This document shows positions 11,703-56,327 of a stretch of DNA of 61,598 nucleotides, one piece after another. Location of the stretch: positions 1 to 61,598 of the forward strand of contig JAWANJ010000002.1 in the NCBI GenBank assembly GCA_038895395.1, in the 5' to 3' direction. The notes under the pieces were generated by a model. It did no database searches, had not been told where the DNA came from, and saw only the letters and a program-made list of their open reading frames with translations. This DNA is from Candidatus Iainarchaeum sp. (GTDB lineage: Archaea; Iainarchaeota; Iainarchaeia; Iainarchaeales; DTGL01). Positions within the stretch are counted from its first letter, which is position 1. Every line of letters starts with the position of its first letter. The position numbers and the translations under genes were made by a program.

Positions 11703-11708
11703 CTAAAG

Positions 11709-13535: not shown

Positions 13536-13540
13536 CTCTC

Positions 13541-20937: not shown

Positions 20938-20983
20938 TAAAATTTTTATTTATTCTCTTGCTAAATGTAATTTTGGTGATTTG

Positions 20984-21889
20984 ATGAAAACAAAGCTTTT
21001 TTCGTTACCATTGTTACTGTTAATTTTCATTACGCTGCTTACTAATGTTGCCTCAGAGCCGCAAAAGGTAGAGGTTGGCATTTATGTTCTCAATATTGGC
21101 AAATTTGAGGTTAGCACAGGATCTTATACAGTTGATTTCTATCTTTCAATGAAATGCGACAAACCTTGTGATCCAAGCAATTTTGAATTCATGAACGGGC
21201 GTGCAACCTCTGTTGACAAAATTATTGACGAGCCAAACGAAAAGTTTTATCGCATTCAGGCATCCCTTGCAGAAAATATTGACCTTAAAAAGTATCCATT
21301 TGATGAGCATTTTTTAACAATACAAATTGAGGATAAAAGGAACACATCTGAAAAACTATTCTATGTTCCAGACGAAAAATCTGCAGGTATTGATCCCTCA
21401 GTTGTAATTGTTGGCTGGGATCTTATCGGCTATGAGCAAGAGGTAACCGATCACTTCTATGAGCCATATGGTGAGACCTATTCTAGGTTTATATTCAAGA
21501 TTCACATAAGGAGAATATTGCTCGCCGCAATCCTAAAAACATTCGTGCCTGTGATATTCATTGTAATTGCGGGGCTATTGGCTTTACTCATACAAGAACA
21601 AGACAAACTTTGGACAAGAATTGGGATAAACACCTCTTCGCTAATTGCTTCAGTAATGTTCCACCTTAATGTTACTTCGAGCATACCACCTGTTGGCTAC
21701 CTCACATTTGCTGACAAATTTATGATATCCACTTATTCCATATTGCTGCTAAGCTTATTTAGCACAGTGATGATGATGCGCCATGCAAAGCGCAAAGATG
21801 AAGTAATGTACAATAGAATATACCACATTGCTTTGTATTGCATACCGGCCATGGCTGTGTTTCTATATGGCATTGTAATAGTTATATAG
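20984..21889 (+). CDS. prokaryotic pentameric ligand-gated ion channel (GLIC/ELIC-like)
   Basis: Signal peptide, then a beta-rich ectodomain (VGIYVLNIGKFEVSTGSYTVDFYL; YPFDEHFLTIQIE, compare GLIC YPFDSQTLHIYLI; VGWDL). Four TM helices follow with an M2-like NTSSLIASVMFHLNVTSSIP and an M3-like YLTFADKFMISTY. Start moved to the ATG at 20984. Confidence 0.85.
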   Translation: MKTKLFSLPLLLLIFITLLTNVASEPQKVEVGIYVLNIGKFEVSTGSYTVDFYLSMKCDKPCDPSNFEFMNGRATSVDKIIDEPNEKFYRIQASLAENIDLKKYPFDEHFLTIQIEDKRNTSEKLFYVPDEKSAGIDPSVVIVGWDLIGYEQEVTDHFYEPYGETYSRFIFKIHIRRILLAAILKTFVPVIFIVIAGLLALLIQEQDKLWTRIGINTSSLIASVMFHLNVTSSIPPVGYLTFADKFMISTYSILLLSLFSTVMMMRHAKRKDEVMYNRIYHIALYCIPAMAVFLYGIVIVI

Positions 21890-41277: not shown

Positions 41278-44200
41278 TCAATTACAACTCCTTCTAGTAA
41301 GGACATTGATCACTGAATTTTCTTTAAGAGCTTTTGGATTCCACCACAGTGACATGCTATTGTCATTAGCATCTACACACAATAGCCCTTCTTTCGCCTT
41401 TTCAATGAGCTCTTTTATAGATCCAACTTCTGGGTTTTCTGCACCTTTTAAGTTATGTGCGATATGCTCACTGAGCTGTTGATCTAAAAACTTAACATTT
41501 GGCGAAGCGGAAGTCAAAACATAGTTCTTACCTTGTGGAGAGAAAAACACTGAACTGAAAAAGTCGTTCCTTATTTCCATGCCTCTGTCAAATTCCAGGC
41601 CATAAGTTTCGGGTTCAAGCTTTTTATCTGGGTAATTCAAAATTTCACTTAAACTCTCGTTTTCTGATGACTTACAGCTTTCAATCCAATTCCAATAAGC
41701 TAAATTGTCTCCAACATCTGTTGTTTTTCCGTTTTCTAAAAGTTTGTAACTTGCTGTTAATTTTTCGTCTAATTTTTTTGAGGTTTGATCTGAGACCTTC
41801 ATAATTGCTATTGAAGCAGTGTTTGGTGAAAACCTCAATAGTAATTCGTTTTCCTTAATTGTGCCACTCAAGATGTTTCCACGCGTTTTTGGATCAACGT
41901 TTGTATATTTTATATCATCTATTATTTCTGTCCTAACCTTTACCAGTGGGGCGCCTTTGCTACCTTCAGTTCTAAGCTCTATTCCACCATAATTGCTAAT
42001 AGTAATTGGTTTGCTAGTATTCTCATAACCACTGCCATATCCAATTCTACCATTAGAGCTCTTTAGGCCCACTTCACCATCTATCGGCCAATAGTAGAAC
42101 AAAGATTCTGGCTCTGGTGGGGAGATTTTACTGTACTTGACCTTAACCAAAGCGTTTGGTTTGTTGTTTCTAAAGAAAGAAAAACTATTGTTAAAGTCAA
42201 TCTCAAGAAATACGTGATAGCGCCCAGGCCCAAGCAGCTTTCTTTCAGGGTTTCCAGTTTCAAATGCTAGGGCATTTTGACTGATAAAGTACTCCTTAAA
42301 GCCCCCGCTGTTTTTGAACCAAAATGGAACTTCAAAGAATGTTTGTGTTGTGTAGTACTCCGCAAAGTCACTCTTAAAATCTTCAGTGTAGCCGTCCATT
42401 ATCAATAACGCGTCAAACTCCAACAATTTTTTCAAAAATTGAATCTTTTCCTGCACAGTTGAACCAGGCCAACCACTGGGCCACTTAATTTCTTTTACAT
42501 TAACATATTCATTCCAATTACTTAAATTTCTGTCAATAAAGTAAAATAAAGCGGGAACACCCTCAATTTTCTTTGTGCTATAAGGTATCCAGCACTCGCC
42601 GTTATCTGCTGATATGGTGAACGCTACAGTAACTTCTTTGCTTGTGTTGCAGCCCCTACTACATTGAGTAATATATGCTAAACCAAAGTAAACATCATTT
42701 TTGCCTTTATCGAGATTGTCAAACAGGCACTCAACAGTGGTAACAGTATTCTTAACAACATTAATCTCTTTTTCACATTCTTTAGCATAGTCGCTACTCT
42801 TAAGTAAGAATTTAACTCTTAGCTTTTGATCTTCACTTGTTTTGTTTTCTATCGTGGCGCTCAGCGTAACTGCTGTTCTTGAAGCATTTAGTTTGTAATC
42901 TAAATTACTTATACCTACTTCATTGCTCCTAATGATGGCAGTTGATTTGCCATCCGTTGTGCTTTTAGAAATACCTTCACTCAAAACTGAACGTGGGTGT
43001 TTTGGACAGGCAAAGTAGTAATCATTCGCTTTGAAAAACTCTTCCAGCATGTAAAGCCTTTTTGTTAGAGCTATGCTATTTTGTACTGCATCGCAGTATA
43101 TGGCGCTTTCATTTTCAGCATCGCAAGAGTTCCAATCAATAGAATCCCATCTCCAATCAAGCTTTACTTTTGGGCTAACATCTTCTGCTAAATAACCTGT
43201 TTTTGTTCCCAAACTGCAACCTTTTAAACCACTGATGCTTTTTAGTTTGTCCCCAATATTTGAATTTGTTACAAATCTCAAATGGACTTTCTGTGAGTAT
43301 TCCCTTGTTTCAGTGTCTGGAACATTAAAAACACCAAAGTCAGCTTTGTCCCTTTCCATTTTGGGGTTTAAGTGTGTCGGGTCACCGTGTATGTGTTCAT
43401 TAACGACTATTTCTAATATTCCATACTCGCCCTTTTCTGCCGCGCGGTTTGTGTTGTTTTCAAAGTTTATTGTAACTATTTGTTCCTTCTTGCTATAATT
43501 GCTTTCTCCCTCTTCTTTGCTTAGTGCCACATCATAGGGTAGCTCTAAAACCTCAAGCCTTTTTATGTCGGAAGGTAGGTTTATTACGTAATCCATAAAA
43601 GCGTAAGTCGCCATTTGAACATCGCATTGTGCTCCAGAAATTGTAAAAAATGTAGTTATGGCAGCGCCTACAAAGCATAAAACACCCGCCCAAAAGCCAC
43701 CTTGTGTAGCGCAAGTAACGCCTGCGAGCAGTCCAGCACCCGCAGCTACTGCAACATTCACCCAAAACCCCGGTTTATCCAATGTTGCTCTCTGAAGGGC
43801 CTTATTCATCACACAATATTCAGGCAATTCTTCGCCTTCTCTGCATGCTGTGCATAGCTTTGCAGTTATGTTTACATCTTCAACCCACATCTTGTTGATC
43901 AAGTTTGCAGAATCCTTCCAATTGGTTTGTGCAGTTAGTATAAACTCATACCTATTCATGCTGAAATATTGTCCTTTTCCAGGTTCTATTATTGTGTCAA
44001 TAGTATCTATATACTGATATTCTGTTTCAGGTGCTTTCGCATACAATGTTATCCCATAAATTCCAGGTATTTGCTCTCTGTGTATTGTTATTGTTTTGGA
44101 GGTCTCATTCTTTGTAAATTTAAGTTCTTCGTATGGGACCAGAGTGATGCCACCTTCTTTTGTACCACCACGACATCTTGGGTCGTCCTTGCATAGCCAA

Positions 44201-47200
44201 ACCGAGATATTTATGTTGCATGAATTTGCATCTATAGTCATTGTGGTTTCATTTTGTTCTGGTTTTAAAACAATCTTTTTTGGATAGCGTATGCAATCCT
44301 TTAAATTCACAATCAGGATATTGGCATTTATTTTTGAATCAGCTCCAACAAAGACAAGCCCTTTGTCTGTTTTTATCTGACCATCGAACTCAATTGTAAA
44401 AATTGCGGTTTCGCCTTTGTATTCTTCTCCGGGTTTGAAAGTGATTATTGTAGAGTAAGTGCCAGAACGTAACTCGTTTTCAAATTTATCAAACAATTTT
44501 GTCCAAACACCACTTCTTAAAATCTTTGTAACTGTTGCTCCACCGGGGGAATTTATTGTGATTTCCACAGCCCCAGCTTTTTTTGAGTTTGATGCCCAAG
44601 TAAGCTTTGCTTGGAGATTTTCAAGATCTACGGGTTTGCCGTTGCTTACACACAAGTTAGATAACTTAACTTCTGTCTTTGCTAGGTTGTCTACAGTTGC
44701 TATGTTCCATTCTGGTACATTTGGGCCTGATAAAGATATACATGGGGCGTTTTCTGGCAAACCGCCTAAAGAGACATTTGCAGTAAAAGGAACAACAAAA
44801 GTATATGTCAAAGAGTGCTTTTGTACCAACACAATAATTTCTATGCTTCCAGATATTTGAGTGTTGCTCTGTAATAGTGACTCTGCATTTGGCGAAAGTA
44901 GCACTTTAAGTGCAAAGTCCAGCTGGTCTTTTGGTTTTACTTTTTGTCCAACAACCGTTGTTGCGTTTGCATTCATTGTTTTTTCATCCAATATATCATA
45001 AAAGTTTCCAACAAATCTTACACTCTTTAACAAAAGTTCTGAGCCGCTTTTATTCTCCAGACTCAAGACTATCTTTTCTTCTGTCTTTGAGGATGTGTTT
45101 AAGCTAACAGAAACACTTTCTGGTACAACGCGTGCAACATTAGAGTCGATAGTAATGACTTTTTTGAAAGGAGAATAACCCATTTTTTCAGCAGTTATTT
45201 CTACTCTGGTGTTTGGTAGTGATTCTACTAACTTAAAAACTGCAAGCCCATTGGCATCAGTAAGTTGCTGAACCACTTCATTAGTGCCATCATCATGTGT
45301 TCTGTGCATTGTTACGAGAACATCCTTAACCTTTTTCTTTTCCCCATCTCTTATATTAACCTTAAGCTCATATTCTGTGAATGGTGCCAATTTCTCTGGT
45401 TCAATGTTTACGTCGAGCTTTCCGACAGAGTAAACCTTTATTGGAACTACTTTGGAAAAAACTACAAATTTGTCAGCAATTATGTCTATTGCTATATTAG
45501 TTGTTGTTTCATCGTTTGTTTTGAACCTTATGTTTGTATTTAATGTCTTTCCATAATCAAATCCAACTAAGTTTTCTTTAAACTCATTGTCTTGTGGCAT
45601 ATACTCTTTTTGCTCGATATCAGCTGTTATCAACATCTTTTCAAAGACCAACGCTGAATCTGACTTTCCTTGTGTTTTGTTTTTTATTCTAATCTCTAAC
45701 GAACCATATTCTTTTTGTGAGTTGTTGAGCAAGTCTAAAATAAGATTGTAGTCTCCAAACAGCACTGTTGAGTAGGGTTCCTTTAAGAAGATATCCTCTT
45801 GTGCATCGTACATCCAAACGCCTGTAACACAAAAAAGCTCTTTGCAAACCCCTTCAGAGCCTTCATAAAATCTAATTTCATGCGTTTTAGCATATAGAGC
45901 ATCCTTTGTGGATGTTCTCTCTAGATCGCCAAGCTCTTCATCATAAGGTTCTCTTACATATGCAGTGTTGATAACCGCATAGCTTCTATAATGGAAAGTT
46001 ATGGGTGTTTTTGGTCTTGTAGAATCCTTGATTTTAATTTTTATTGGTACTGTGTATACAGAGGCTTTGGGGCTCAACCACTCTATGGATACCCATTTTC
46101 CGTCTGATCCAACAATTTCCTCTAGCGCTTCGGACTTTGGCGGATTATATGTTTTACCTATTCTAACCATGGTTCCTTTGATGTCAACGCCCTTTATAAA
46201 TGCTGGCTCCAAATTAACATCACTTTTTTCACCTATTCTAAAGTGGAATCCAACTTTTGAAGCACCCGGTGGGTAAAAAAGCATAAATTTGGCAACATAC
46301 TCTTTGCCTGCCTTGATGCTAGCAGAAGCTCCGCCATTTTGATCAAAGATACCTAAAAATTCAATCTTTGGTTTTGGAAGCTCACCTTCTTTGAGCAACA
46401 CTGCTTTTATTTCATATGTTTCGTTTGGCCATAATTGTATGGTTTCACTTTCATAGTTAAGAAAGCCATCTTTGCTTACCACAACATATATGCTTTGGGC
46501 TGCTTTAACCTCATATTCCTTTTCACCATCAACCATAACAATTTTGCCCTTTGTAAGAGAATTTCTATCTATGGAGGAAAAAACTTCAAAATAAGACTCC
46601 GGAATCTTAATACCGCGAGAATCAAATGCACTTACCTTAAGAATGCTCTTGCCAATCGTTATGGTAACCTCGAAATAATTGTTTTCGTCTGGTATTATTT
46701 TCTTAGCCTGCGCTGCAGAACCTCCAGATGCTGGATATTTTATAACAAAAGGATATACCTCTTCACTTAACCAGCCCAAAACAAATTCAGCTATGCCATT
46801 AGAGTCTGTAAGCTTATAGTTTTGACTCGAAGGAAGTTCAACAATAGAGTCAGTAGCTTTGTACTTAAACATTACCTTAGCATCTTTTACAGGTGCTCCG
46901 TCTTCATCAAGAACTTTTACAATAGTTCGCCCACTGTTAGCCTCAGTTATTCTTTCGAGCTCAACAGTTAAAGATTCCATTGAAGAGCTGATGTTTATGT
47001 CTAAAGTTTTTGGGAAATATCCTTCTTTTTTTGCAACAACAGTATATTTGCCAAAATCAAAAAAAGAAAATCTAACAACACCGCCTTCTTTTGTAATATC
47101 GCTTGCAATTGCTTTTTTATCAAATAGGACTTTGACTTCTACGTTCTCTACAGCACTTTGAGTTTCCATTTCAATTGTTCTAACTAATAAAACCGCACTT

Positions 47201-48165
47201 ATTTTTTTGCTAAGTTCCACATAAACCTCTGTTGTTTCTTTTGCTCTGACAACTGCAGTTATACAATTTCCTGAATAAGTTTGTTCCGGGTCTGTAGCGA
47301 AAACATTGTACAACCCAGGAAGCAGACCATCAAAATCAACTAACCCATAGCCTTGTGTATGAGCAACCTGTTTTGTGCCATCTTTTTCTATGTTTACGAC
47401 TATATTTTTTTTAAGTATCAACTCTTTTTTTTCATCAACAATTTTTACCCTTAGAGCGCCTTTAGGTATTTCAATCTCTTTGAAAATAACTAGAATTTCA
47501 GTCCCTTTCTGGATTGCTCTCTCAAATTCATGGTTTTCCAACTCCGCATTTTCAACCTTTAACTCTTTACAATCCAAAGGCAATGTAACTTCTATGTAAC
47601 CATCTTTGTCAATGTCAACTTCCTTCCAAGGGTTGATTGACTTATTCGAACAACTCAGCCAAACAGTTACAAATTTCCCTCTTGTTGAACCTTTGCTTGT
47701 TTCAAATCGTAATATTCTTTTTTCCAATGGTTTTTCTCTAAGTTTAAGAGTTAGTGTTTTATCTGTATCCTCTTTAATGGTAAAGTTCCATTCCTCATCT
47801 AAATATAAAGGATGCTTAACTACAATCCGTACCACTGCATTTTCGTCAACACTAAATGAAATTTTTCCTTTATCATCAGTCCTTCTAATTTTTGGTTCGT
47901 TTCCAATAACAAAATTTACATCAATTCCAGATATGGGCGCCCCTTTTTCATCTTTGAAATAAACTGTGAAAGTATAACGCTTTGGTGGTTTTGTTGGTTC
48001 TTGACTGAAAAAGAGCCAATATGCAAAAAAAGCTAAAATTATTAGTAGTATAAGCACAATTGGCAGGGCTTTTGGAATTCCTCGTCTTTCACAAAATGCA
48101 ATGTACCTTTCTTTTAGAGTTGGTGATGAATCTTCTTCTATAAAATCCATTATCCACACCAACAT
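41278..48165 (-). CDS. giant surface protein G1 (2295 aa)
   Basis: Uninterrupted 6.9-kb ORF. Architecture: N-terminal TM anchor (nt ~48005-48070), six beta-sandwich repeats, a conserved core, a two-helix hydrophobic hairpin (FWVNVAVAAGAGLLAGVTCA-TQG-GFWAGVLCFVGAAITTFFTI, nt 43639-43767), then a ~780-aa C-terminal region. Colinear with G2 and G3. The likely start is the second ATG (MDFIEE, nt 48150), which is preceded by GGTG. Confidence 0.85.
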   Translation of the reverse strand: MLVWIMDFIEEDSSPTLKERYIAFCERRGIPKALPIVLILLIILAFFAYWLFFSQEPTKPPKRYTFTVYFKDEKGAPISGIDVNFVIGNEPKIRRTDDKGKISFSVDENAVVRIVVKHPLYLDEEWNFTIKEDTDKTLTLKLREKPLEKRILRFETSKGSTRGKFVTVWLSCSNKSINPWKEVDIDKDGYIEVTLPLDCKELKVENAELENHEFERAIQKGTEILVIFKEIEIPKGALRVKIVDEKKELILKKNIVVNIEKDGTKQVAHTQGYGLVDFDGLLPGLYNVFATDPEQTYSGNCITAVVRAKETTEVYVELSKKISAVLLVRTIEMETQSAVENVEVKVLFDKKAIASDITKEGGVVRFSFFDFGKYTVVAKKEGYFPKTLDINISSSMESLTVELERITEANSGRTIVKVLDEDGAPVKDAKVMFKYKATDSIVELPSSQNYKLTDSNGIAEFVLGWLSEEVYPFVIKYPASGGSAAQAKKIIPDENNYFEVTITIGKSILKVSAFDSRGIKIPESYFEVFSSIDRNSLTKGKIVMVDGEKEYEVKAAQSIYVVVSKDGFLNYESETIQLWPNETYEIKAVLLKEGELPKPKIEFLGIFDQNGGASASIKAGKEYVAKFMLFYPPGASKVGFHFRIGEKSDVNLEPAFIKGVDIKGTMVRIGKTYNPPKSEALEEIVGSDGKWVSIEWLSPKASVYTVPIKIKIKDSTRPKTPITFHYRSYAVINTAYVREPYDEELGDLERTSTKDALYAKTHEIRFYEGSEGVCKELFCVTGVWMYDAQEDIFLKEPYSTVLFGDYNLILDLLNNSQKEYGSLEIRIKNKTQGKSDSALVFEKMLITADIEQKEYMPQDNEFKENLVGFDYGKTLNTNIRFKTNDETTTNIAIDIIADKFVVFSKVVPIKVYSVGKLDVNIEPEKLAPFTEYELKVNIRDGEKKKVKDVLVTMHRTHDDGTNEVVQQLTDANGLAVFKLVESLPNTRVEITAEKMGYSPFKKVITIDSNVARVVPESVSVSLNTSSKTEEKIVLSLENKSGSELLLKSVRFVGNFYDILDEKTMNANATTVVGQKVKPKDQLDFALKVLLSPNAESLLQSNTQISGSIEIIVLVQKHSLTYTFVVPFTANVSLGGLPENAPCISLSGPNVPEWNIATVDNLAKTEVKLSNLCVSNGKPVDLENLQAKLTWASNSKKAGAVEITINSPGGATVTKILRSGVWTKLFDKFENELRSGTYSTIITFKPGEEYKGETAIFTIEFDGQIKTDKGLVFVGADSKINANILIVNLKDCIRYPKKIVLKPEQNETTMTIDANSCNINISVWLCKDDPRCRGGTKEGGITLVPYEELKFTKNETSKTITIHREQIPGIYGITLYAKAPETEYQYIDTIDTIIEPGKGQYFSMNRYEFILTAQTNWKDSANLINKMWVEDVNITAKLCTACREGEELPEYCVMNKALQRATLDKPGFWVNVAVAAGAGLLAGVTCATQGGFWAGVLCFVGAAITTFFTISGAQCDVQMATYAFMDYVINLPSDIKRLEVLELPYDVALSKEEGESNYSKKEQIVTINFENNTNRAAEKGEYGILEIVVNEHIHGDPTHLNPKMERDKADFGVFNVPDTETREYSQKVHLRFVTNSNIGDKLKSISGLKGCSLGTKTGYLAEDVSPKVKLDWRWDSIDWNSCDAENESAIYCDAVQNSIALTKRLYMLEEFFKANDYYFACPKHPRSVLSEGISKSTTDGKSTAIIRSNEVGISNLDYKLNASRTAVTLSATIENKTSEDQKLRVKFLLKSSDYAKECEKEINVVKNTVTTVECLFDNLDKGKNDVYFGLAYITQCSRGCNTSKEVTVAFTISADNGECWIPYSTKKIEGVPALFYFIDRNLSNWNEYVNVKEIKWPSGWPGSTVQEKIQFLKKLLEFDALLIMDGYTEDFKSDFAEYYTTQTFFEVPFWFKNSGGFKEYFISQNALAFETGNPERKLLGPGRYHVFLEIDFNNSFSFFRNNKPNALVKVKYSKISPPEPESLFYYWPIDGEVGLKSSNGRIGYGSGYENTSKPITISNYGGIELRTEGSKGAPLVKVRTEIIDDIKYTNVDPKTRGNILSGTIKENELLLRFSPNTASIAIMKVSDQTSKKLDEKLTASYKLLENGKTTDVGDNLAYWNWIESCKSSENESLSEILNYPDKKLEPETYGLEFDRGMEIRNDFFSSVFFSPQGKNYVLTSASPNVKFLDQQLSEHIAHNLKGAENPEVGSIKELIEKAKEGLLCVDANDNSMSLWWNPKALKENSVINVLTRRSCN

Positions 48166-48179
48166 TTACCTATTTTGCT

Positions 48180-51100
48180 TTAGTCTTTTATACACTGTGA
48201 AGGTATGCTTTCTATAGTGTTCTTTAATGACGAATTGATGATCTCTTGCTGATTCCAGAAAAATATCGCTCTTGAGTCACTTCCAGCACCGGCGATGCAA
48301 ATTTTCTTTTCTTCCACTAACCTAAGTATCTTTTCTATTGAGGTTATTATTGTCTCTTCTAAGCCACCAGCCTCTACACGATTTCCAGTACCTTTTGGAG
48401 TTATAAAGCTTGCACTGTCCATAGCACTCACAATCTCGAGTAAAGCTGTACTTTCCTGTGGAGTATACAAGACAGTCTTAAGGAATGTATCCCCTTTTCT
48501 TATCACGTTGCACCATTCAATACCATATTGGTGTGTATCAAAACTTCCAGCACATTGGGTTCTACCAACACCTCCACGAATGTCTCTTTTGTAGTTAAAA
48601 GCTTCTGTCACATCAACATCACTGAAGTCTTTACAGCCTTTTGTAACACCAGCCCATGTGAAAAGATTACTAGACGCTTCCTGAGGTTTACCATTTATCG
48701 TAAGCTGGTAGAACACATACGCTTTTGTTCTTTCACCTCCGCTTACCTTGAGTATTATTGGTGTGACAACGCTTGGGCTATAAATCATACTTATACCACT
48801 GGCCGCTTTTTCAAGTTCTAAAACAACCCCTGGAGCATCATTGTGCAAAGTTTTAAAGTCTTTTACAACGCGGGCCTCTATCCACCCGCCAGGTATTGGC
48901 ACCGAGTTTGCAATTGTGGTTGTTCTTACTGGTTGTCTTATGTCCTCATTTATTTTTACAGTTTCTTCTGATTTTTGCCTGTAGTTTACTCCATACCCTT
49001 GTCGGCCGTTTTGGCTGTCGACACCTATAAGTCCGTCAAAGGGCATGTAATAGAACACAGAGTCTGGCTTTGGTGTGTCAAGGCGCTCAAATATCACTTC
49101 TATTTTCGCATCAGGCGTGGTGTTTTCAAACAAACACCAACAATTGTTGTTATAATCAATATTTATTTTGATATTATATTTTCCTGCTGGCAGATAGCCA
49201 GCTTCAGGCCTTAAGAATGATGACTTAAACTCAAACAGTTCTGGGTTTGAAAAGAATTTTCCAAGCCCAGTTTCTCCCTTATACCAAGATGGAGTGCTAA
49301 AGAAGTCTTTTGTTTCAGAGAACTCATGGAAGTCTCTTCTAAAGTCTAGCGTATAGCCATCTTGGATAAGATATGCATTAAAATTCACCAGTGATAATGC
49401 TTCTTTTAGGTTTGCGTTTGTTGGGTTGGCAGCAGCAAACTCTGCTAAGCGTTCAGTGGTATAAGGCTCACATTTTTCAAAGATTCCGGTTGGAGCACCA
49501 ACTGAGAATCTTGTGCTCAAAATATCATTGCCAAGGTTTTCATTTTTACAAGTTCCCGGACATGTGCTAAGCTGTGGACTAACTCTAATTGTGGCTTCAT
49601 ACAAACCTTCTGCAAGCTCATTAAATGTGCAACTAACCTCGCTATCGTCAATCACTTTTATTGCTTTTTCACCTTCTGGACAGCTCAAAGTTGATCCATC
49701 TTTTACAACATTTATAGATACGTTAACAGTTAGCTCTTTTTTGTTGTTGCTTGAGATTATGCCAATTACTTTGGCATTAGCTCCACTTTTTTCAATCTTT
49801 ATTTTTGTTACAGCAACGTCAAGCTTTAATGAGTCTAATTCCTGACTTCTTTCGTTCAGAATCCCTTCAGCTGAAGGACATTTCAGTTTTTGGCCTCTTA
49901 GCAATTCATCAATCCTTCTTATTTTTTTAAGCAACTCAATACTTAACTGAGTTGCATCGCAATAGTATCCTAAACCACCTTCATCACATTCATTTATAGC
50001 AATATCTTTCCAATTCCAAGCAAGCTTTATCTTAGGTAGAGCTTCCTTGCCAGTTGAGCCCACAAGAGCACCAACCTTACAACTAACCTCGGGCTTAATT
50101 GTAATCTCGGTGGGTTTTGACCTATGGGAGTTGAACTGTAGATGGAACTTTTGCAAATATCTTTCACCACCAATTACTGTTGGCTCCATCTTTTTCATAG
50201 CTTCAGCATCTTTCTTCATTCTAGTGTCATAGTTGGTGTCATACTCTAAACGATTTCCATCAACCCTAAGTACGCGATATATTGGTTTGTATATGTCTTC
50301 TTGTTGTATGCCATTGTTTTTGAATATAATTTCAATCTTCTCGAAACCTAGTGGTTTATCGGGTGTGGTTTCGACTTTACTATCGCCTTTTTGAACACTA
50401 ATCAGAGTTTCAATTTCCTCTTCTAAACCTTTTTGTATTACAAGTTGTAAGTCTGTTATGTTCAAATCCCTTACTGCAGCAACCACCTCAAGTACGCCAA
50501 CGTTTTGGCTTTGCTGCCAGTAGGTATATAAAGTGCCGGCTATGAAACCTATCAATGCCCCAGTCCAGGGGTCGTCTATGTTTATTATATTGCTAAAGAC
50601 ATTAAGACCGCCTTGTAAAAGACTTCCTATACTTTCTAATGAAAAGAACCCGACAGGTGCTGAGGTTACCATAACAGTTTGGTTGGGTTTCAATTTTGTG
50701 CTTACAACCGTGCTTGTTTTTCCAGCACTACTTAGATTGCAAAAGCTATTGTTGCAACTCTTAAACTTGTAGCAAGGCCCACTTTTTGAACACTCTACAT
50801 CATATTCACATGTAACCGCAAGTTCGCAATCACAAACCTTGCTCAAACCTGAGCCATAAGCTTTTTGACATTTGGCTAGTGTATCATAGCATCCGAAGCA
50901 CAAATTGCTGCTAGGTGCTATATCAGCACTAACACACTGGCCATTGTAGCACTTTGCACCAGTTGCGCCACAATCCATAAAAATGCCTCTTTTACCACAA
51001 CTGTCTTTCCAATAAAGCTTGTCATCCTCGCAATAGTATCCTTCAACAATACATTCTTCTCCAGACATAGCGCCAGAAGATCCACATCTGCTATTATTAC

Positions 51101-54100
51101 AATATCCAAATCTGTAGCATTTACCAAACTCATCATATATGCAGGTTATTGCAGCATAGCAATCGCATCCGCCTGTTGAAATCGTGGGGTTATTCCAAGC
51201 TTTCGCAGCGCATTCAATCTCAGTACTGTAACAACCTGGGATTTTTGGTCCAACAGCTGAAATAAGGCCACTTCCAGTTGTCGGCTGTTCTGGTCCAGCA
51301 CAATCGTTTTTGCAGCATAGCACAAACCTTTCGGCTGTTTGCATCGAAAATGTGCAATCTGGATAGCACTCCTCATAAGACTGTATCCTTCTTGAATTCA
51401 AGTAGTATGTTTTGCACATTTCTTCATCTGTTGCAGGCGATGTTACAATTGGAGATGTTGTAACAGTGGGCCTTGTGGTGCCAGTGGGTGGTTTTGTGCT
51501 CTCTTTTACACACTGTTTGCTACAACAAGTAACATTACCAACTACTGCATAGGCAGCATCAGGGCATAACTCATCTTCTTTACAAAAATATTTTCCAGCA
51601 GATGTGCAGACCTTTTCAGGGGTTTCAATTTTCGTGTCTTTGCACTTACCAGTGCAGCATACAACCCCTTCAACTACAACCTCTTTGCCTTGACTTAAAT
51701 CACAGTTTCCAGGCCCGCAGTAAGTGTAACCCTTCTTTTTACACCATTCTTTATCCAAACGAGCTTCTTCTGTTATGCACTCTGAAGCACAGCAAGTTAT
51801 ATTGTCAACTACTACTATCTTCTCATCTTTACAAAGATTTTTGGTACCACAATATTTGTATCCAGCCTTGTTGCAAACATTTGAAGGGATGGGTGTGCCA
51901 AAGAATGTTTTGCCAGCAGCAAGTGATCTTACGCCCCCATAAACAAAACCAACAAGCCCCCAGATAGCGCCTGTTTTTATCGCTTCCCACCAATCACGTT
52001 CATCATAGCTTATCGTAATTGTTTCTGTCCTTTTATAGCAGTCATTTATGAGCAATGCTGTATCAAATCCATCATATGGATTATTTTCGTCGTCATATAT
52101 ATCAAACTCATATCGATTCAGTCTTAAGCAACCATCCGGCTCTATGATAACCCTTATTAGCTTCTTAAAAGAGTATTGACTTTCACCCATACTTTTGACC
52201 ATAACATAAATAGGATATTGTCCCGGTATGTCTTGTTGAGACGGCATTACAATTATTTCTTTTGAGTCATCTGGTTTCATGGTAAATTCTTTTTCTGATA
52301 CTGCAATCTTTGTATCAAGCATGAAATCAATGGGTACTTTACATTCTTTAGTTTCGATTTTTATTGTTGCTTCGTTGTAATCAACAATTCTAACTAATGT
52401 TTTGTCAAATCTTATGCAGTCTTCCAAGCTTATTATTTCTATTTCAGTATCTATGCTCGCGCTTAGGACTTGCTTGCCTGCATTTGTATAATGTTCTCCA
52501 GTGATGATCACCTTTGCTTTTGCTGTTCCTGTAATGCCAGCATCTGGTAAGAATTTCAAAAGTGCTGAAATTTCTTCCTCTGCGCCAAATGTGCCTTTAA
52601 TAATTTTTGGATAAGAACCGCTAAGCTCTAATGCGACATCGCCAATGCTTACATAGTAATCTCCAACACGATTGCTCTGCCACTCTATCCTTGCGCTTAG
52701 GTTTTTAAGATCTATTGGCTTGCCGTCAACTGTACAATTGTTCTTAACTGAAAAGTCAGTGCTCACTTCATTGCTTTTTGTCTTTGTTTTCCACTCCTTT
52801 ATGCTAACCACTAAACATGACGGATCTTCAACTTCACCACCAAGACCTATTGAAATTTTGACCTTTGTTTCAGAGTTCCAAACATGTCCAAAGGCCTTTA
52901 CCGAAGAAACGCTTGCTGTCAAGATACCTTCTAAGGTTTTGGCCTGTGTCAAAGTTTTTCCAAAATCGCTCAAGGATACCTTAAGAGCAATGTCAAGTTT
53001 GTCATGTGGCTTTATTTCTTTACCAACATATTCGCCTACAAGCCAGTCCCTTACTTTTCTTTCATCAATTGCTCCATAAAAGTCTCCAGAAAGCTTAATT
53101 CCATAAACCTTCAGTGGCATTGCAGTCTTATTTACTAATCTTACTACGGCACTATCTTCAGTCTTAGAAACAACATTTAATTGCAGGCCTATTTCAGATG
53201 GCTCTATGCCAAGCACATTACCATCAGCAAATATTTCCTTCTTAGCTTCCTCGTAATCTGGCTTCTCTGCAGTTAGTACTAATTTTTCTCCAGGCATCAA
53301 TGCTGGTAGCTTGACTTCAGCCAAGCCCAAAGAGGTTGTAGTTGTTTGAAGCATTGTGTTGCCATTTGGATCCTTTATTTTAACCAAAACATCTGAAACT
53401 TCCAAGTTTGTTTGCTTGTCTCTTATCCTTGCTATTATTTTATTTTCTACACCACTGGTTAGTATTGGCGCTTCAGATTGGAAAGTATCTCCAACTTTAA
53501 AGTCTATAATGAAGCTCTTGGCTGCAATTATATCAACAAAGATTGTTTCTTCAAATACGTGTGCAAACCTTGTTGGATCATGTAACCTAATGGTTATACC
53601 TCCAAACTTTCCAGTGGTTGGTGAAAAGTTTATATAGCCGTGAATCTCAGTGTTTGGTTTAACGTCACCAATCTCTATATAAGATGTCTCACTTGCATTT
53701 GCAGTTCCTTTCACAACTGTTTCGCCATAGATTTCATAATTGCTAAAAACAATGTTCTTTTCACTGTTGAATATCTTAAGCTTTACCTTGCTGTAGCTGT
53801 CAGTCTCAAATTTGCTATTGTTTGTAATACTGAATATTAACCTATATTGTTTTCCAACTTTGGCACTATAGCTTCTATCTATATAAACAGCAACATTTTC
53901 TTCAATGTCTAAAGCTTTAAAGACAGTACACCACTTTTCTGTGCATAACCTCTCTTCACCTACGCTATAGACACGCTCATAGGTTTTTGCATACAGCTCC
54001 CTATCACTTAAAGCATTTCCAAGAGTTATGTCTTCTGGATCCCTAACCAAAATACCTTTTCTTAAACCCCACGCACGCCACATAATGCTAAGCTCTTCAG

Positions 54101-56327
54101 CAGCTGCCGACTCTTTGACCTTTACTTTAACATATACATATATTATTCCATCGCTTTGCTTGCTCCACTCAAGGTTTATCCACTTAGAGCTTTCTGCACT
54201 TAAAGAGGCAAGGTCATATGTCGTGCCTTCTTCTGGATTATAAGAAGTTCCTCTTATCATTTTTGGGTTTCCACCTGCATAGACCTCCTTTATGAAAATA
54301 AAGTCTTTTTCCATAATGTTATATTTACCTACCCTTACGTGAGCACCAAAGCGGTCATATTGAGCAGACCTGGGTACAGAAATTTTAAACTTTGCAATAT
54401 ATTCTTTGCCTGCAGCCAAAACCATTACATTCTTTTCGTCCTTGAAAAGACCTAAAAACTCGATCTTTATTTCACCACTAATCCTTTCAGCTTCAAGCCT
54501 TATGTTCATGCTCCTTTGTTCATTTGGCGCAAGCACAATCCTCTGGCTTATGTAAGTAGCATACTCTGGGTGACTAACAAAAAGATAAAATGAAAGGCCC
54601 GCATCTATGTTTATATCAAGTTCACCACTTATTTTTTCTACCTTTAATGGACCTTTTATAACCTTATCCGTGTAAGCGTCTTTTACTATAACATCACTAA
54701 AAGGTAGAGCTTCGTCATCAGTGTTTGTTACCTTTAGCTTTAAAGTTGCTTTTGGTATATCAAGCACAATAATTGCTTCTTGTTCAATGCCAAGCCTAGG
54801 TATAAACTCAATTACATCGCTCCAGTTGCTACCAAATCCTTTATAAGCAAAGAATTTGTATTTTCCAGCGTACAAACCTTTAAATTCTGCTCTTCCATTC
54901 ATATCAGTAATCATTTCCTTTAACCCAAGAGCATTTCCATTACTGTCATAGGCAGCTACCTTTGCGTTTGGTATTGATATGCCCTGAGAATCAACTACTT
55001 TCACAATAACTAAGCCCCCACAGTCATTCGCATAAGGCTGTAGTTCTAATTTTATGATGCCCTCTGATTTTCTCACATCAGTAAGCCTATGCACGCAATA
55101 GTCTGGGTGATTTATCACTAATAAGAAGTTTATATCTTCACAAAGGTGAAAATCAACCCTGCCTTCTGAATTAGTGTCAGCAGAAGCATATTGTTTGTTA
55201 CCTACAAAAAGCGTTGCCTTTGCTCCTTCGAGTGGTTTTGAGGTTGTTTTATCAACTACTTGGATTTTTATACTTCCAATATACCTTGGTGTAAGCTCTA
55301 GGCTAACAGTTCTATATTCGTTAGCTCCAATAGTTATAAACTGAGATTCAGCAGATGTATACGTAGTAGTGGCTTTTGTTTTAACCCTATAACTTCCGGG
55401 CAAAACCTCAAATAATACTTGACCACCACTCGTAACTCCAGATTCAACGAAAACAGGTGTTGCACCAGTGTCTTTTTCAAGGTCAACTATGATGTTTTCA
55501 GATGGTGCCTGACCTTTGAATGTTACATTTACTATTATTTTTCCTTTTTGTTCTGGGGGTTTCATCTCAACAATCTTTTTTAGTAAAATAGTCGACCCAT
55601 CTGTAACGCGAACACCTTCTTTAGCTTCATAGCCTCTGGTGCTTAAAGTTACAATCAGTGGAAGGCAGTCAATTTCAACATCATCTATTTGTACTTCCCC
55701 ACCGTGTGTTGTATATTTCTCAGCATCTGCGGGCGGATTTGCTTTTTTGTTAGAGCACTCAAAAGAAAGCGAAATCCTTTGGACGATGGGCTCTTTATTG
55801 TTTTCGTCTAAAATCCTAAAGCTTACTGTTTGCGTACGGATAATTTCGGTAAGTAAAAAGTTAATAACTACATTTTCATCTTCTTCAATTAAAACACTTT
55901 TTTCAATGGGATTCGGCTTGAATCCTTCTTTAGAAACACGCAAAGTTATTGAGTCACCCTTTTTAACAGCAATCGCTTCTGATAGAGTCCCAGCAGTATT
56001 AGTGGCACTCCTATAAACCTTTTCACCCAAGAGCATTTCAACATTTGCCCCTTCTAAAGGCCTTTTTGCACCAAACCTGTCTTGATACTGAACAAACACG
56101 TTAACGTAAACATCTTTTTTGAATACACTTATTGGCAGAAAGAAAATTACTAACGCTGCTATTAATACTAGTGCCAATATTATTAGCAAAAGGAATGAGG
56201 GAAATACCTTATCAATAGCGTCAGTTATCTTATTTATAGGTATCTTTGTGCTAATCCTGTCTATAATTTCGTAGTATCTGTCCTCAAGATGCAAATAAAG
56301 TTCACGCAATGCACTTATTACGCCCAT
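48180..56327 (-). CDS. giant surface protein G2 (2715 aa), paralog of G1 with a 448-aa Cys-rich insertion
   Basis: Uninterrupted 8.1-kb ORF ending 14 nt upstream of G1. Same architecture as G1: TM anchor (nt ~56130-56205), six CarboxypepD_reg-like repeats (e.g. VIVKVVDSQGISIPNAKVAAYDSNGN...TDMNGRAEFKGLYAGKYKFFA), then shared motifs in the same order. Confidence 0.85.
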   Translation of the reverse strand: MGVISALRELYLHLEDRYYEIIDRISTKIPINKITDAIDKVFPSFLLLIILALVLIAALVIFFLPISVFKKDVYVNVFVQYQDRFGAKRPLEGANVEMLLGEKVYRSATNTAGTLSEAIAVKKGDSITLRVSKEGFKPNPIEKSVLIEEDENVVINFLLTEIIRTQTVSFRILDENNKEPIVQRISLSFECSNKKANPPADAEKYTTHGGEVQIDDVEIDCLPLIVTLSTRGYEAKEGVRVTDGSTILLKKIVEMKPPEQKGKIIVNVTFKGQAPSENIIVDLEKDTGATPVFVESGVTSGGQVLFEVLPGSYRVKTKATTTYTSAESQFITIGANEYRTVSLELTPRYIGSIKIQVVDKTTSKPLEGAKATLFVGNKQYASADTNSEGRVDFHLCEDINFLLVINHPDYCVHRLTDVRKSEGIIKLELQPYANDCGGLVIVKVVDSQGISIPNAKVAAYDSNGNALGLKEMITDMNGRAEFKGLYAGKYKFFAYKGFGSNWSDVIEFIPRLGIEQEAIIVLDIPKATLKLKVTNTDDEALPFSDVIVKDAYTDKVIKGPLKVEKISGELDINIDAGLSFYLFVSHPEYATYISQRIVLAPNEQRSMNIRLEAERISGEIKIEFLGLFKDEKNVMVLAAGKEYIAKFKISVPRSAQYDRFGAHVRVGKYNIMEKDFIFIKEVYAGGNPKMIRGTSYNPEEGTTYDLASLSAESSKWINLEWSKQSDGIIYVYVKVKVKESAAAEELSIMWRAWGLRKGILVRDPEDITLGNALSDRELYAKTYERVYSVGEERLCTEKWCTVFKALDIEENVAVYIDRSYSAKVGKQYRLIFSITNNSKFETDSYSKVKLKIFNSEKNIVFSNYEIYGETVVKGTANASETSYIEIGDVKPNTEIHGYINFSPTTGKFGGITIRLHDPTRFAHVFEETIFVDIIAAKSFIIDFKVGDTFQSEAPILTSGVENKIIARIRDKQTNLEVSDVLVKIKDPNGNTMLQTTTTSLGLAEVKLPALMPGEKLVLTAEKPDYEEAKKEIFADGNVLGIEPSEIGLQLNVVSKTEDSAVVRLVNKTAMPLKVYGIKLSGDFYGAIDERKVRDWLVGEYVGKEIKPHDKLDIALKVSLSDFGKTLTQAKTLEGILTASVSSVKAFGHVWNSETKVKISIGLGGEVEDPSCLVVSIKEWKTKTKSNEVSTDFSVKNNCTVDGKPIDLKNLSARIEWQSNRVGDYYVSIGDVALELSGSYPKIIKGTFGAEEEISALLKFLPDAGITGTAKAKVIITGEHYTNAGKQVLSASIDTEIEIISLEDCIRFDKTLVRIVDYNEATIKIETKECKVPIDFMLDTKIAVSEKEFTMKPDDSKEIIVMPSQQDIPGQYPIYVMVKSMGESQYSFKKLIRVIIEPDGCLRLNRYEFDIYDDENNPYDGFDTALLINDCYKRTETITISYDERDWWEAIKTGAIWGLVGFVYGGVRSLAAGKTFFGTPIPSNVCNKAGYKYCGTKNLCKDEKIVVVDNITCCASECITEEARLDKEWCKKKGYTYCGPGNCDLSQGKEVVVEGVVCCTGKCKDTKIETPEKVCTSAGKYFCKEDELCPDAAYAVVGNVTCCSKQCVKESTKPPTGTTRPTVTTSPIVTSPATDEEMCKTYYLNSRRIQSYEECYPDCTFSMQTAERFVLCCKNDCAGPEQPTTGSGLISAVGPKIPGCYSTEIECAAKAWNNPTISTGGCDCYAAITCIYDEFGKCYRFGYCNNSRCGSSGAMSGEECIVEGYYCEDDKLYWKDSCGKRGIFMDCGATGAKCYNGQCVSADIAPSSNLCFGCYDTLAKCQKAYGSGLSKVCDCELAVTCEYDVECSKSGPCYKFKSCNNSFCNLSSAGKTSTVVSTKLKPNQTVMVTSAPVGFFSLESIGSLLQGGLNVFSNIINIDDPWTGALIGFIAGTLYTYWQQSQNVGVLEVVAAVRDLNITDLQLVIQKGLEEEIETLISVQKGDSKVETTPDKPLGFEKIEIIFKNNGIQQEDIYKPIYRVLRVDGNRLEYDTNYDTRMKKDAEAMKKMEPTVIGGERYLQKFHLQFNSHRSKPTEITIKPEVSCKVGALVGSTGKEALPKIKLAWNWKDIAINECDEGGLGYYCDATQLSIELLKKIRRIDELLRGQKLKCPSAEGILNERSQELDSLKLDVAVTKIKIEKSGANAKVIGIISSNNKKELTVNVSINVVKDGSTLSCPEGEKAIKVIDDSEVSCTFNELAEGLYEATIRVSPQLSTCPGTCKNENLGNDILSTRFSVGAPTGIFEKCEPYTTERLAEFAAANPTNANLKEALSLVNFNAYLIQDGYTLDFRRDFHEFSETKDFFSTPSWYKGETGLGKFFSNPELFEFKSSFLRPEAGYLPAGKYNIKINIDYNNNCWCLFENTTPDAKIEVIFERLDTPKPDSVFYYMPFDGLIGVDSQNGRQGYGVNYRQKSEETVKINEDIRQPVRTTTIANSVPIPGGWIEARVVKDFKTLHNDAPGVVLELEKAASGISMIYSPSVVTPIILKVSGGERTKAYVFYQLTINGKPQEASSNLFTWAGVTKGCKDFSDVDVTEAFNYKRDIRGGVGRTQCAGSFDTHQYGIEWCNVIRKGDTFLKTVLYTPQESTALLEIVSAMDSASFITPKGTGNRVEAGGLEETIITSIEKILRLVEEKKICIAGAGSDSRAIFFWNQQEIINSSLKNTIESIPSQCIKD
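50568..51911 (-). other. Cys-rich insertion of G2 placed between the two hairpin helices (helix a 51912-51974, helix b 50517-50567)
   Basis: Contents, in order:
- Three ~40-aa 6-Cys repeats (C.K.GY.YCG...C.....VVV....CC...C; nt ~51510-51875).
- A Thr/Pro linker (TKPPTGTTRPTVTTSPIVTSPAT, nt ~51425-51500).
- Two ~55-aa 8-Cys repeats (GCY.T...C.KA......CDC....TC.YD....C.KF..CNNS.C; nt ~51072-51236 and ~50725-50894).
- Other Cys-rich modules. Confidence 0.8.

What the first reader, a model, noticed from the sequence alone, without database searches (positions are those of the whole stretch)
50568..51911. 448-aa Cys-rich repeat module inserted exactly at the turn of the G2 hairpin
In G1 the loop between the two hairpin helices is about 3 residues. 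In G2 the same point holds 448 aa containing:
- Three ~40-aa six-Cys repeats: CNKAGYKYCGTKNLCKDEKIVVVDNITCCASEC / CKKKGYTYCGPGNCDLSQGKEVVVEGVVCCTGKC / CTSAGKYFCKEDELCPDAAYAVVGNVTCCSKQC.
- A Thr/Pro-rich linker.
- Two ~55-aa eight-Cys repeats: GCYSTEIECAAKAWNNPTISTGGCDCYAAITCIYDEFGKCYRFGYCNNSRC / GCYDTLAKCQKAYGSGLSKVCDCELAVTCEYDVECSKSGPCYKFKSCNNSFC.
- Further Cys modules.

This creates a topological paradox. If the helices span the membrane and the flanking giant regions are outside, the insert is cytoplasmic, which would favour Zn-binding modules. Yet a Thr/Pro linker and dense Cys knots look extracellular and disulfide-bonded. Either way it is a lineage-specific decoration of one paralog at a structurally special site.
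Basis: partly seen in the sequence, partly recalled or inferred. Interest (0 to 1): 0.7.

Follow-up and report, generated by a model that had tools for sequence, protein, structure and literature searches.

The report
Cysteine-rich variable loop, archaeal surface giant
A giant cell-surface protein of a tiny uncultured archaeon (Iainarchaeota) carries a 440-residue stretch of small cysteine-rich modules between two glycine-rich helices; it is most likely an exposed, disulfide-bonded, fast-changing display arm rather than an internal zinc-binding region, so the supposed topology paradox probably does not exist.

Summary
G2 (48180-56327, minus strand, 2715 aa) has 48 of its 77 Cys in aa 1473-1920. 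They form seven modules of 6, 6, 6, 6, 8, 6 and 10 Cys, joined by Thr/Pro-rich linkers, between two Gly-rich helices that align by position with the G1 hairpin.

It is not a misassembly and not private to this genome. Every close G2 ortholog in independent Iainarchaeota MAGs has a Cys-rich insert at this site, 171-933 aa long. More distant homologs carry Cys-free Thr/Pro/Glu/Gly-rich inserts there, and one carries PKD domains.

The three proximal modules keep all 18 Cys invariant. The distal modules are swapped between lineages. The module type matches nothing in Pfam, PDB or 1.84 billion representative proteins outside G2 orthologs.

The paradox most likely dissolves:
- The G2 helices score like the most hydrophobic stretches of soluble proteins, not like membrane spans.
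- Cys counts are even in every ortholog and usually not multiples of four.
- CxxC is almost absent, CC doublets are common and His is rare.
- Both flanks are beta-sandwich ectodomains with conserved Cys pairs.

Best reading: an extracellular, disulfide-stabilised, hypervariable display arm. Its function (adhesion or recognition) is inferred, not shown.

The parts
48180..56327 (-). G2: 2715-aa giant surface protein. It has an N-terminal signal anchor, a beta-sandwich array, two helices with an insert between them, and a C-terminal beta-sandwich region.
   Evidence: ORF listing and translation. Pfam CarboxypepD_reg 78.9 bits and SpaA 34.6 bits. Orthologs P0002-P0009.
56130..56198 (-). N-terminal signal anchor (aa 44-66, SFLLLIILALVLIAALVIFFLPI). 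This is the only clearly membrane-competent segment of G2.
   Evidence: Kyte-Doolittle 3.57. Summed insertion energy -7.7.
51918..51992 (-). Helix A (aa 1446-1470, WWEAIKTGAIWGLVGFVYGGVRSLA). Gly-rich, conserved, and only weakly hydrophobic.
   Evidence: AF2 helix at model residues 55-79, pLDDT about 80. Insertion energy +5.5. 39-97% identity across orthologs.
51777..51875 (-). Module A1 (6 Cys, spacing C-x7-C-x5-C-x12-CC-x3-C).
   Evidence: All Cys are invariant in 9 orthologs.
51642..51743 (-). Module A2 (6 Cys).
51510..51608 (-). Module A3 (6 Cys).
51417..51509 (-). Thr/Pro-rich linker (VKESTKPPTGTTRPTVTTSPIVTSPATDEEM).
51300..51416 (-). Module D (6 Cys, ends in CC-x3-C like the A type).
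51084..51233 (-). Module B1 (8 Cys, includes a CxC).
50934..51053 (-). Module C (6 Cys). It is present in three tandem copies in ortholog P0002.
50739..50900 (-). Module B2 (10 Cys, that is the B1 pattern plus one extra pair).
50571..50738 (-). Ser/Thr-rich tail followed by a conserved Gly-rich amphipathic segment (GFFSLESIGSLLQGGLNVFSNIINIDD).
   Evidence: Short AF2 helices at model residues 506-509 and 517-524.
50508..50570 (-). Helix B (aa 1920-1940, PWTGALIGFIAGTLYTYWQQS), with a GxxxGxxxG motif.
   Evidence: AF2 helix at model residues 529-549, pLDDT 79-87. Insertion energy +7.9.
43630..43767 (-). G1 hairpin (aa 1467-1512), used for comparison. Two strongly hydrophobic Gly/Ala-rich helices joined by a 3-6 residue turn.
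   Evidence: Kyte-Doolittle 1.7 and 1.9. Insertion energies +2.9 and -0.1.

Best explanation
The segment is an extracellular, disulfide-bonded, modular display arm of a giant surface protein.

Proposed mechanism:
- G2 is held in the archaeon's own membrane only by its N-terminal signal anchor. Everything after residue about 67 lies outside the cell.
- Helix A and helix B are Gly-rich helices that pair with each other or pack on the beta-sandwich body. They form a stalk from which the loop projects.
- The three conserved proximal 6-Cys modules form a rigid base. Each has a short helix plus beta-hairpins and probably three disulfides.
- Thr/Pro-rich linkers space out the distal modules, which are gained, lost and duplicated between lineages.
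- The distal end is the likely contact surface for a partner cell, matrix or particle.

Shown here: the anatomy, the conservation pattern, the weak hydrophobicity of the helices, the Cys arithmetic, and the orphan status of the module.

Inferred: disulfide bonding, the outside location, and the binding role.
For: 1. Same site, many genomes. Orthologs P0002-P0009 and P0018, and GTDB loci L003-L013 and L022, all carry Cys-rich inserts of 171-933 aa between a conserved helix A and helix B.

2. Cys arithmetic.
- Counts are even in every ortholog protein: 48, 60, 34, 18, 62, 58, 72, 86, 78, 74.
- Counts are even in all 17 GTDB species-representative loci where both anchor helices could be placed.
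- Most counts are not multiples of 4.
- Each insert has 0-2 CxxC, 3-11 CC doublets and 0-10 His.
- Every module in the window has an even count, and B2 equals B1 plus one pair.

3. The helices are not membrane-like.
- G2 helices score +5.5 and +7.9.
- The best 19-mers of most soluble controls score +6 to +10.
- Membrane controls score -4.5 to +2.6, and N-terminal anchors -4 to -8.

4. What occupies the same site in relatives is extracellular in type.
- L021 has a PKD domain (PF22352, 29.6 bits against a cutoff of 27, E = 7e-7).
- Others have Thr/Pro/Glu/Gly/Asn-rich low-complexity stretches with small beta modules.

5. Both flanks look like ectodomains.
- Pfam finds CarboxypepD_reg, SpaA, Big_1 and MG4.
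- Part of the C-terminal model resembles a CARDB domain (3idu, probability 1.0, TM-score 0.68 on the target).
- The flanks keep 12 and 14 invariant Cys in close pairs.

6. Conservation gradient. A1-A3 are 38-76% identical, like the rest of the protein. The distal modules are recognisable only in the two closest orthologs.

7. AF2 gives helix plus beta-hairpin modules at pLDDT 65-79.
Against: - There is no direct evidence of location or redox state.
- The insertion-energy scale was applied from memory as a simple sum, without position weighting. No dedicated topology predictor was available.
- Gly-rich helix pairs can insert cooperatively even when each helix scores poorly. G2 helix A is at the hydrophobic extreme of the soluble controls.
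- Some source samples appear, from their names, to be hot springs. Thermophilic archaea can form cytoplasmic disulfides (own knowledge), so even Cys counts argue for disulfides but not, alone, for an outside location.
- N-glycosylation sequons are not clearly enriched: 1.25 per 100 aa in the insert against 0.56 in the rest here, with no consistent trend across orthologs.
- AF2 confidence is low for the distal modules (below 50). Model coordinates could not be inspected, so Cys-Cys geometry was not checked.
- The binding role is pure inference.
Confidence: 0.72

Rival explanations
1. Cytoplasmic zinc-binding loop. Helix A and helix B are true membrane spans. The two giant arms are outside, and the Cys-rich modules sit in the cytoplasm as Zn-binding domains, for example for signalling or docking.
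For: - G1 has a membrane-competent hairpin at the corresponding position.
- Helix A is followed by R and K residues.
- High Cys content in an archaeal cytoplasm would usually mean metal binding (own knowledge).
Against: - The G2 helices score +5.5 and +7.9, outside the range of membrane controls.
- Helix B would have to act as an internal signal anchor for an 800-aa domain.
- Six-Cys modules and totals that are not multiples of four do not fit Cys4 sites. CxxC knuckles are nearly absent and His is rare.
- Thr/Pro-rich and Gly/Thr-rich linkers, and a PKD domain, occupy the same site in relatives.
- The segment just before helix B is acidic (IDDP), against the positive-inside rule.
- No zinc-finger family was hit in Pfam.
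Confidence: 0.1
2. Inverted topology. The N-terminal anchor is N-out/C-in, so the giant arms are cytoplasmic. Only the Cys-rich loop is exposed outside, between two membrane spans.
For: - Charges flanking the N-terminal anchor do not fix its orientation (sequence).
- It would place the disulfide-rich, Thr/Pro-linked loop outside without contradiction.
Against: - Both arms consist of domain types typical of secreted or surface proteins: CarboxypepD_reg, Big_1, MG4, SpaA and a CARDB-like fold.
- The arms have conserved close Cys pairs.
- This reading still needs the two weak helices to span the membrane.
- G3-type paralogs share both arms but lack the helix pair.
Confidence: 0.05
3. Artefact. 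The insert is a misassembly or a chimeric join.
For: - The other end of the same contig does show a probable chimera: a beta-lactamase fragment fused to G3, with GC 0.44 against 0.38.
- The insert has slightly higher GC (0.41 against 0.38).
Against: - The reading frame is continuous.
- Insert-bearing orthologs are present in data from NCBI, JGI, ENA and Logan and in at least 10 GTDB species genomes.
- There are no DNA repeats that could mislead an assembler.
- The higher GC is what Cys/Gly/Thr/Pro codons would give (inference).
Confidence: 0.01

Closest known systems
Giant membrane-anchored surface proteins of DPANN archaea (for example the nanohaloarchaeal SVXNc_0300 / 'SPEARE' proteins; PMC10266531)
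   Same: - Very large and anchored in the membrane.
- Built mainly of Ig-like or beta-sandwich domains.
- Found in a small-genome archaeon of the same superphylum.
- Variable between close relatives.
- Proposed to mediate cell-cell contact.
   Different: - No sequence relationship was found.
- No VirB4/TraG-like ATPase domain was detected in G1-G3.
- The Iainarchaeota proteins come as 3-4 tandem paralogs of 2200-3200 aa.
- They carry an internal Gly-rich helix pair with a variable loop.
Small disulfide-rich extracellular repeat modules (EGF-like, knottin-like, three-finger 'CC-x3-5-C' endings)
   Same: - 30-55 residue modules with 6-10 Cys.
- Even Cys counts and CC doublets.
- Tandem arrays separated by Thr/Pro linkers.
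   Different: - The Cys spacing C-x7-C-x5-C-x12-14-CC-x3-C matches no Pfam model.
- No PDB sequence or fold match, and no protein outside G2 orthologs in 1.84 billion representatives.
- The resemblance is in kind only, recalled from memory.
Zinc ribbons, zinc fingers and metallothioneins
   Same: High Cys content in short modules.
   Different: - No paired CxxC knuckles and almost no His.
- Six Cys per module.
- Rich in aromatic residues and in predicted beta structure.
Hydrophobic helical hairpins of pore-forming toxins and Gly-rich viral fusion peptides
   Same: - Gly/Ala-rich hydrophobic segments of intermediate hydrophobicity, with GxxxG spacing.
- They sit inside a large ectodomain, in G1 and in the helix B region of G2.
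   Different: - No sequence or fold match.
- Membrane activity is untested.
- This is a lead recalled from memory, not a result.

Membership tests
Zinc-binding Cys modules (zinc ribbon / treble clef / Zn2Cys6) | Paired CxxC (or CxxH) knuckles supplying four ligands per metal. | tested here: not met
   0-2 CxxC per insert of 133-893 aa, and 0-10 His. No zinc-finger Pfam hit.
Zinc-binding Cys modules (zinc ribbon / treble clef / Zn2Cys6) | Cys number per module and per protein compatible with Cys4 sites. | tested here: not met
   Modules have 6, 8 or 10 Cys. Insert totals of 34, 18, 62, 58, 86, 78 and 74 are not multiples of 4.
Zinc-binding Cys modules (zinc ribbon / treble clef / Zn2Cys6) | Bound metal. 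| not testable with these tools
   Needs ICP-MS or a PAR assay on recombinant protein.
Extracellular disulfide-rich repeat domains | Even number of invariant Cys per module, and gains or losses in pairs. | tested here: met
   18 of 18 Cys invariant in A1-A3. All inserts have even counts. B2 equals B1 plus 2 Cys.
Extracellular disulfide-rich repeat domains | Location outside the cytoplasm. | tested here: inconclusive
   Supported indirectly by non-membrane-like flanking helices, a PKD domain at the same site in L021, ectodomain-type flanks and Thr/Pro linkers. There is no direct test.
Extracellular disulfide-rich repeat domains | Actual disulfide bonds. | not testable with these tools
Needs non-reducing/reducing mass spectrometry.
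Transmembrane helical hairpin (for the G2 helices A and B) | Two segments of about 19 or more residues with favourable membrane insertion energy. | tested here: not met
   +5.5 and +7.9, against -8 to +2.6 for anchors and membrane controls. The hydrophobic cores are only 14-17 residues between charged or polar residues. The scale was applied from memory as a simple sum.
Transmembrane helical hairpin (for the G2 helices A and B) | Positive-inside charge distribution around the loop. | tested here: inconclusive
   R and K follow helix A, but the acidic IDDP precedes helix B. There is no consistent pattern in homologs.
Any curated Pfam / NCBIfam family for the insert | Score above the family's curated threshold. 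| tested here: not met
   Window insert: only DUF4907 at E = 0.09, 13 bits against a cutoff of 25. Four ortholog inserts gave nothing. NCBIfam gave nothing for G2.

The most novel reading that the evidence does not exclude
The Gly-rich helix pair and the Gly-rich amphipathic segment before helix B may be a membrane-active element, like a fusion peptide or a pore-forming hairpin. It would be carried on giant surface proteins of a DPANN archaeon. G1 would keep an insertion-competent hairpin. G2 would have split it with a hypervariable, disulfide-rich receptor-recognition arm. The tandem paralogs G1-G3, plus a fourth giant protein encoded upstream of G3 in related genomes, would act together to dock onto and breach or fuse with a partner cell's membrane.
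Probability: 0.08. Interest if true: 0.85.

Novelty: new variant of a known kind. Interest (0 to 1): 0.42.

Why it matters
Iainarchaeota (Diapherotrites) are uncultured, and their lifestyle, free-living or host-associated, is unsettled (own knowledge).

A conserved cluster of three to four giant surface paralogs is a concrete candidate for the cell-contact machinery of this phylum. One of them carries a rapidly remodelled exposed arm at a fixed structural site.

The A-type module is an undescribed small Cys-rich domain, so far seen only in G2 orthologs. Together with the Cys-free inserts at the same site in sister lineages, it offers a natural series for studying how display loops are built and exchanged.

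The finding also corrects a tempting misreading: Gly-rich helices in ectodomains are not automatically membrane spans.

Tried and rejected
Searches that found nothing:
- A word-index search with the 448-aa insert alone returned nothing, not even the window's own protein. This is a sensitivity limit of that tool, not evidence of absence. The full-length query found the orthologs.
- Pfam on the window insert and on four ortholog inserts.
- NCBIfam on G1, G2 and neighbouring genes: only sub-threshold hits, none informative.
- PDB sequence searches with the insert, with full G2 and with the A1-A3 profile.
- A profile of A1-A3 against 1.84 billion representative proteins hit only P0001 and P0018, which are both G2 orthologs.
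- A single-module HMM against 3264 ORFs from 1.2 Mb of Iainarchaeota loci hit only G2 orthologs.
- Foldseek of the hairpin-plus-insert model against PDB gave no match below E = 0.59.
- Foldseek of the C-terminal model gave only generic beta-sandwich matches: CARDB, integrin legs and complement MG domains.
- Literature searches found no description of this family. Two searches timed out.

Ideas rejected:
- Metallothionein-like: only 11% Cys, and rich in aromatics and predicted beta structure.
- Fe-S cluster motif: no CxxCxxC.
- A thioester motif in the C-terminal region: the conserved YCDAxQ has the wrong spacing for CGEQ. This comparison is from memory and was not pursued.
- N-glycosylation sequon enrichment as a location marker: no consistent signal.
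- Sequence homology between the G1 and G2 helices: not significant, so only positional correspondence can be claimed.


Full report
**Context.** The window is a whole 61.6-kb contig of an archaeon. It encodes EF-1alpha, EF-2, RNA polymerase subunits, Cdc48 and PolB, and its GC content is about 37%. The closest relatives of its giant proteins come from 'Candidatus Iainarchaeum / Diapherotrites' MAGs. This is phylum Iainarchaeota in the DPANN group.

Three giant ORFs lie head to tail on the minus strand:
- G3: 56436-61532
- G2: 48180-56327, 2715 aa
- G1: 41278-48165, 2295 aa

G1 and G2 are paralogs. They are 27% identical over the first 1440 aa and 25% over the last 740 aa, and the alignment breaks exactly around the region in question.

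**Observation check.** The given coordinates translate to G2 aa 1473-1920. This stretch holds 48 Cys in 448 aa; the remaining 2267 aa hold 29.

The Cys fall into seven modules:
- A1, A2, A3: 6 Cys each, spacing C-x7-C-x4/5-C-x12-14-CC-x3-C
- D: 6 Cys
- B1: 8 Cys
- C: 6 Cys
- B2: 10 Cys

A Thr/Pro-rich linker follows A3. The quoted repeats are far more alike than shuffled controls, with z = 11-14. There are no DNA-level repeats, so the duplications are old.

The insert lies between two segments that AF2 models as helices with pLDDT of about 80-87:
- helix A: aa 1446-1470, WWEAIKTGAIWGLVGFVYGGVRSLA
- helix B: aa 1920-1940, PWTGALIGFIAGTLYTYWQQS

With the insert removed, G2 aligns collinearly with G1, and the two helices fall on the two helices of the G1 hairpin. 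The helices themselves are not significantly similar. The correspondence is therefore positional.

**Not an artefact and not private to this genome.**
- A search with full-length G2 found orthologs at 39-66% identity from NCBI, JGI, ENA and Logan data.
- All of them keep a conserved helix A and helix B. Between these lies a Cys-rich region of 173 aa (P0004, only A1-A3) up to 933 aa (P0008).
- A scan of GTDB species genomes with the C-terminal domain found 69 related loci. Most bins that carry a name are called Iainarchaeum or Diapherotrites; many are unnamed and a few carry other names.
- In 17 of these loci both anchor helices could be placed by HMM. Insert length there ranges from 70 to 737 aa.
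- Gene order around G2 is conserved in two other genomes: a fourth giant protein, a ~563-aa protein with a hydrophobic N-terminus and 14-16 Cys, G3, G2, G1, then small proteins that are hydrophobic in L001.

**The site is a general variable loop.** The clade closest to the window (44% or more identity in the C-terminal domain) has Cys-rich inserts with 7-11% Cys. More distant homologs have inserts at the same place with 0-4 Cys. These are built from Thr/Pro/Glu/Gly/Ala/Asn-rich low-complexity sequence and small beta modules.

One homolog (L021) carries PKD-type domains there. PF22352 scores 29.6 bits, above its cutoff of 27, with E = 7e-7. PKD domains are known as extracellular domains (established knowledge).

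The tight 3-6 residue turn of G1 is thus the unusual state. A long loop is the common one.

**Conservation pattern.** A1-A3 are about as conserved as the rest of the protein (38-76% identity), and all 18 of their Cys are invariant. The distal modules are recognisable only in the two nearest orthologs. Elsewhere they are replaced by other Cys modules. The C-terminal domain is 48-75% identical.

**Is it a known family?** No.
- Pfam, NCBIfam and PDB sequence searches were negative.
- A profile of A1-A3 against 1.84 billion representative proteins hit only two G2 orthologs.
- A single-module HMM hit only G2 orthologs among 3264 ORFs from related loci, with 3-8 copies each.
- Foldseek of the AF2 model found nothing.

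**Zinc or disulfide?**
- Cys counts are even in all ten ortholog proteins (48, 60, 34, 18, 62, 58, 72, 86, 78, 74) and in all 17 GTDB loci. Most are not multiples of four.
- CxxC occurs 0-2 times per insert, CC doublets 3-11 times, and His 0-10 times.
- Modules have 6, 8 or 10 Cys, and B2 equals B1 plus one pair.

This fits disulfide pairing and does not fit Cys4 zinc sites. I could not inspect model coordinates, so the geometry is untested.

**Inside or outside?** I summed a biological hydrophobicity scale (Hessa et al., values from memory, simple 19-residue sums):

| Segment | Summed insertion energy |
|---|---|
| N-terminal anchors | -4 to -8 |
| Small membrane proteins in the window | -4.5 to +2.6 |
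| G1 hairpin helices | -0.1 and +2.9 |
| G2 helices A and B | +5.5 and +7.9 |
| Most hydrophobic 19-mers of EF-2, RpoB, Cdc48 | about +6 |

The hydrophobic cores of the G2 helices are only 14-17 residues long. G3-type paralogs share both arms but lack the helix pair.

Both arms look extracellular:
- Pfam finds CarboxypepD_reg, SpaA, Big_1 and MG4.
- Part of the C-terminal model resembles a CARDB domain.
- The arms keep 12 and 14 invariant Cys in close pairs.

The simplest topology is a single N-terminal anchor with everything else outside. On that reading the paradox disappears.

**Caveats.**
- No dedicated topology predictor was available.
- Gly-rich helix pairs can insert cooperatively.
- Some source samples appear, from their names, to be hot springs. 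Cytoplasmic disulfides occur in thermophilic archaea (own knowledge).

**Mechanism proposed.** The helix pair forms a stalk at the junction between the N-terminal and C-terminal beta-sandwich arrays. A1-A3 form a disulfide-braced base. Thr/Pro linkers and the exchangeable distal modules form an exposed tip that probably binds a partner surface. The turnover of distal modules fits pressure on an exposed surface. The binding role is inferred by analogy with other giant surface proteins of DPANN archaea (PMC10266531), not shown.

**Rivals.** I rate a cytoplasmic zinc loop at about 0.1, an inverted topology at about 0.05, and misassembly at about 0.01. The most novel reading not excluded is that the Gly-rich helix pair is membrane-active towards a partner cell, with G2's loop acting as its recognition arm. 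I rate that at about 0.08.

**Verdict.** This is an undescribed Cys-rich module type in an undescribed giant surface protein family, but the kind of feature, a variable disulfide-rich display region, is familiar. Interest is moderate.

Noticed in passing
window 56436-61598 (minus strand): G3 is truncated and chimeric. Its aa 224-1697 match aa 977-2439 of the full-length ortholog in L001 at 67% identity. Its first ~223 aa are the C-terminal part of a Beta-lactamase domain (PF00144, profile positions 139-320). That part has GC 0.44 against 0.38 for the rest, and an in-frame TAA lies three codons from the contig end. This is probably an assembly chimera or a rearrangement.
   Followed up: partly
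window 36600-61598; L001, L002: The gene cluster is conserved in Iainarchaeota. Its order is: a fourth giant paralog, a ~563-aa protein with a hydrophobic N-terminus and 14-16 Cys, G3, G2, G1, small hydrophobic proteins (two in the window and L001), a 151-aa coiled-coil protein, and a ~500-aa protein on the other strand. The last two were checked only in the window and L001. No Pfam or NCBIfam family explains the small proteins or the 505-aa protein.
   Followed up: partly
window 7914-15016 (minus strand): RNA polymerase subunit A is one 1262-aa ORF containing Rpb1 domains 1-5, while subunit B is split into two ORFs. A is usually split in archaea (own knowledge).
   Followed up: no
window 20918-21889 (plus strand): A 323-aa ORF has a weak, sub-threshold hit to the ligand-binding domain of neurotransmitter-gated ion channels (PF02931, E = 1.8e-4, 21.4 bits against a cutoff of 26). 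It overlaps the start of the neighbouring methylase-like ORF.
   Followed up: no
L040, L042-L046 (includes Candidatus Forterrea multitransposorum CP045477.1): Short family members of about 970-1030 aa consist only of an N-terminal anchor plus the C-terminal domain, without the long N-terminal array or the helix pair.
   Followed up: no
L002 18945-25956 (G1 ortholog); P0011; P0015: - The G1 ortholog in L002 has about 50 polar residues between its two hydrophobic helices.
- P0011 has different Cys modules after a Gly-rich segment at the same site.
- P0015 has a C-terminal array of CGDGxC...CPxDC-type repeats.

Cys-rich add-ons therefore recur in this family at more than one position.
   Followed up: partly
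G2 aa 2099-2141; G1 and G3 equivalents: A motif W-x-W...C-D-x(3-8)-[YF]-C-D-[AG]-x-Q followed by a long helix is conserved in G1, G2, G3 and distant homologs. Its role is unknown.
   Followed up: no
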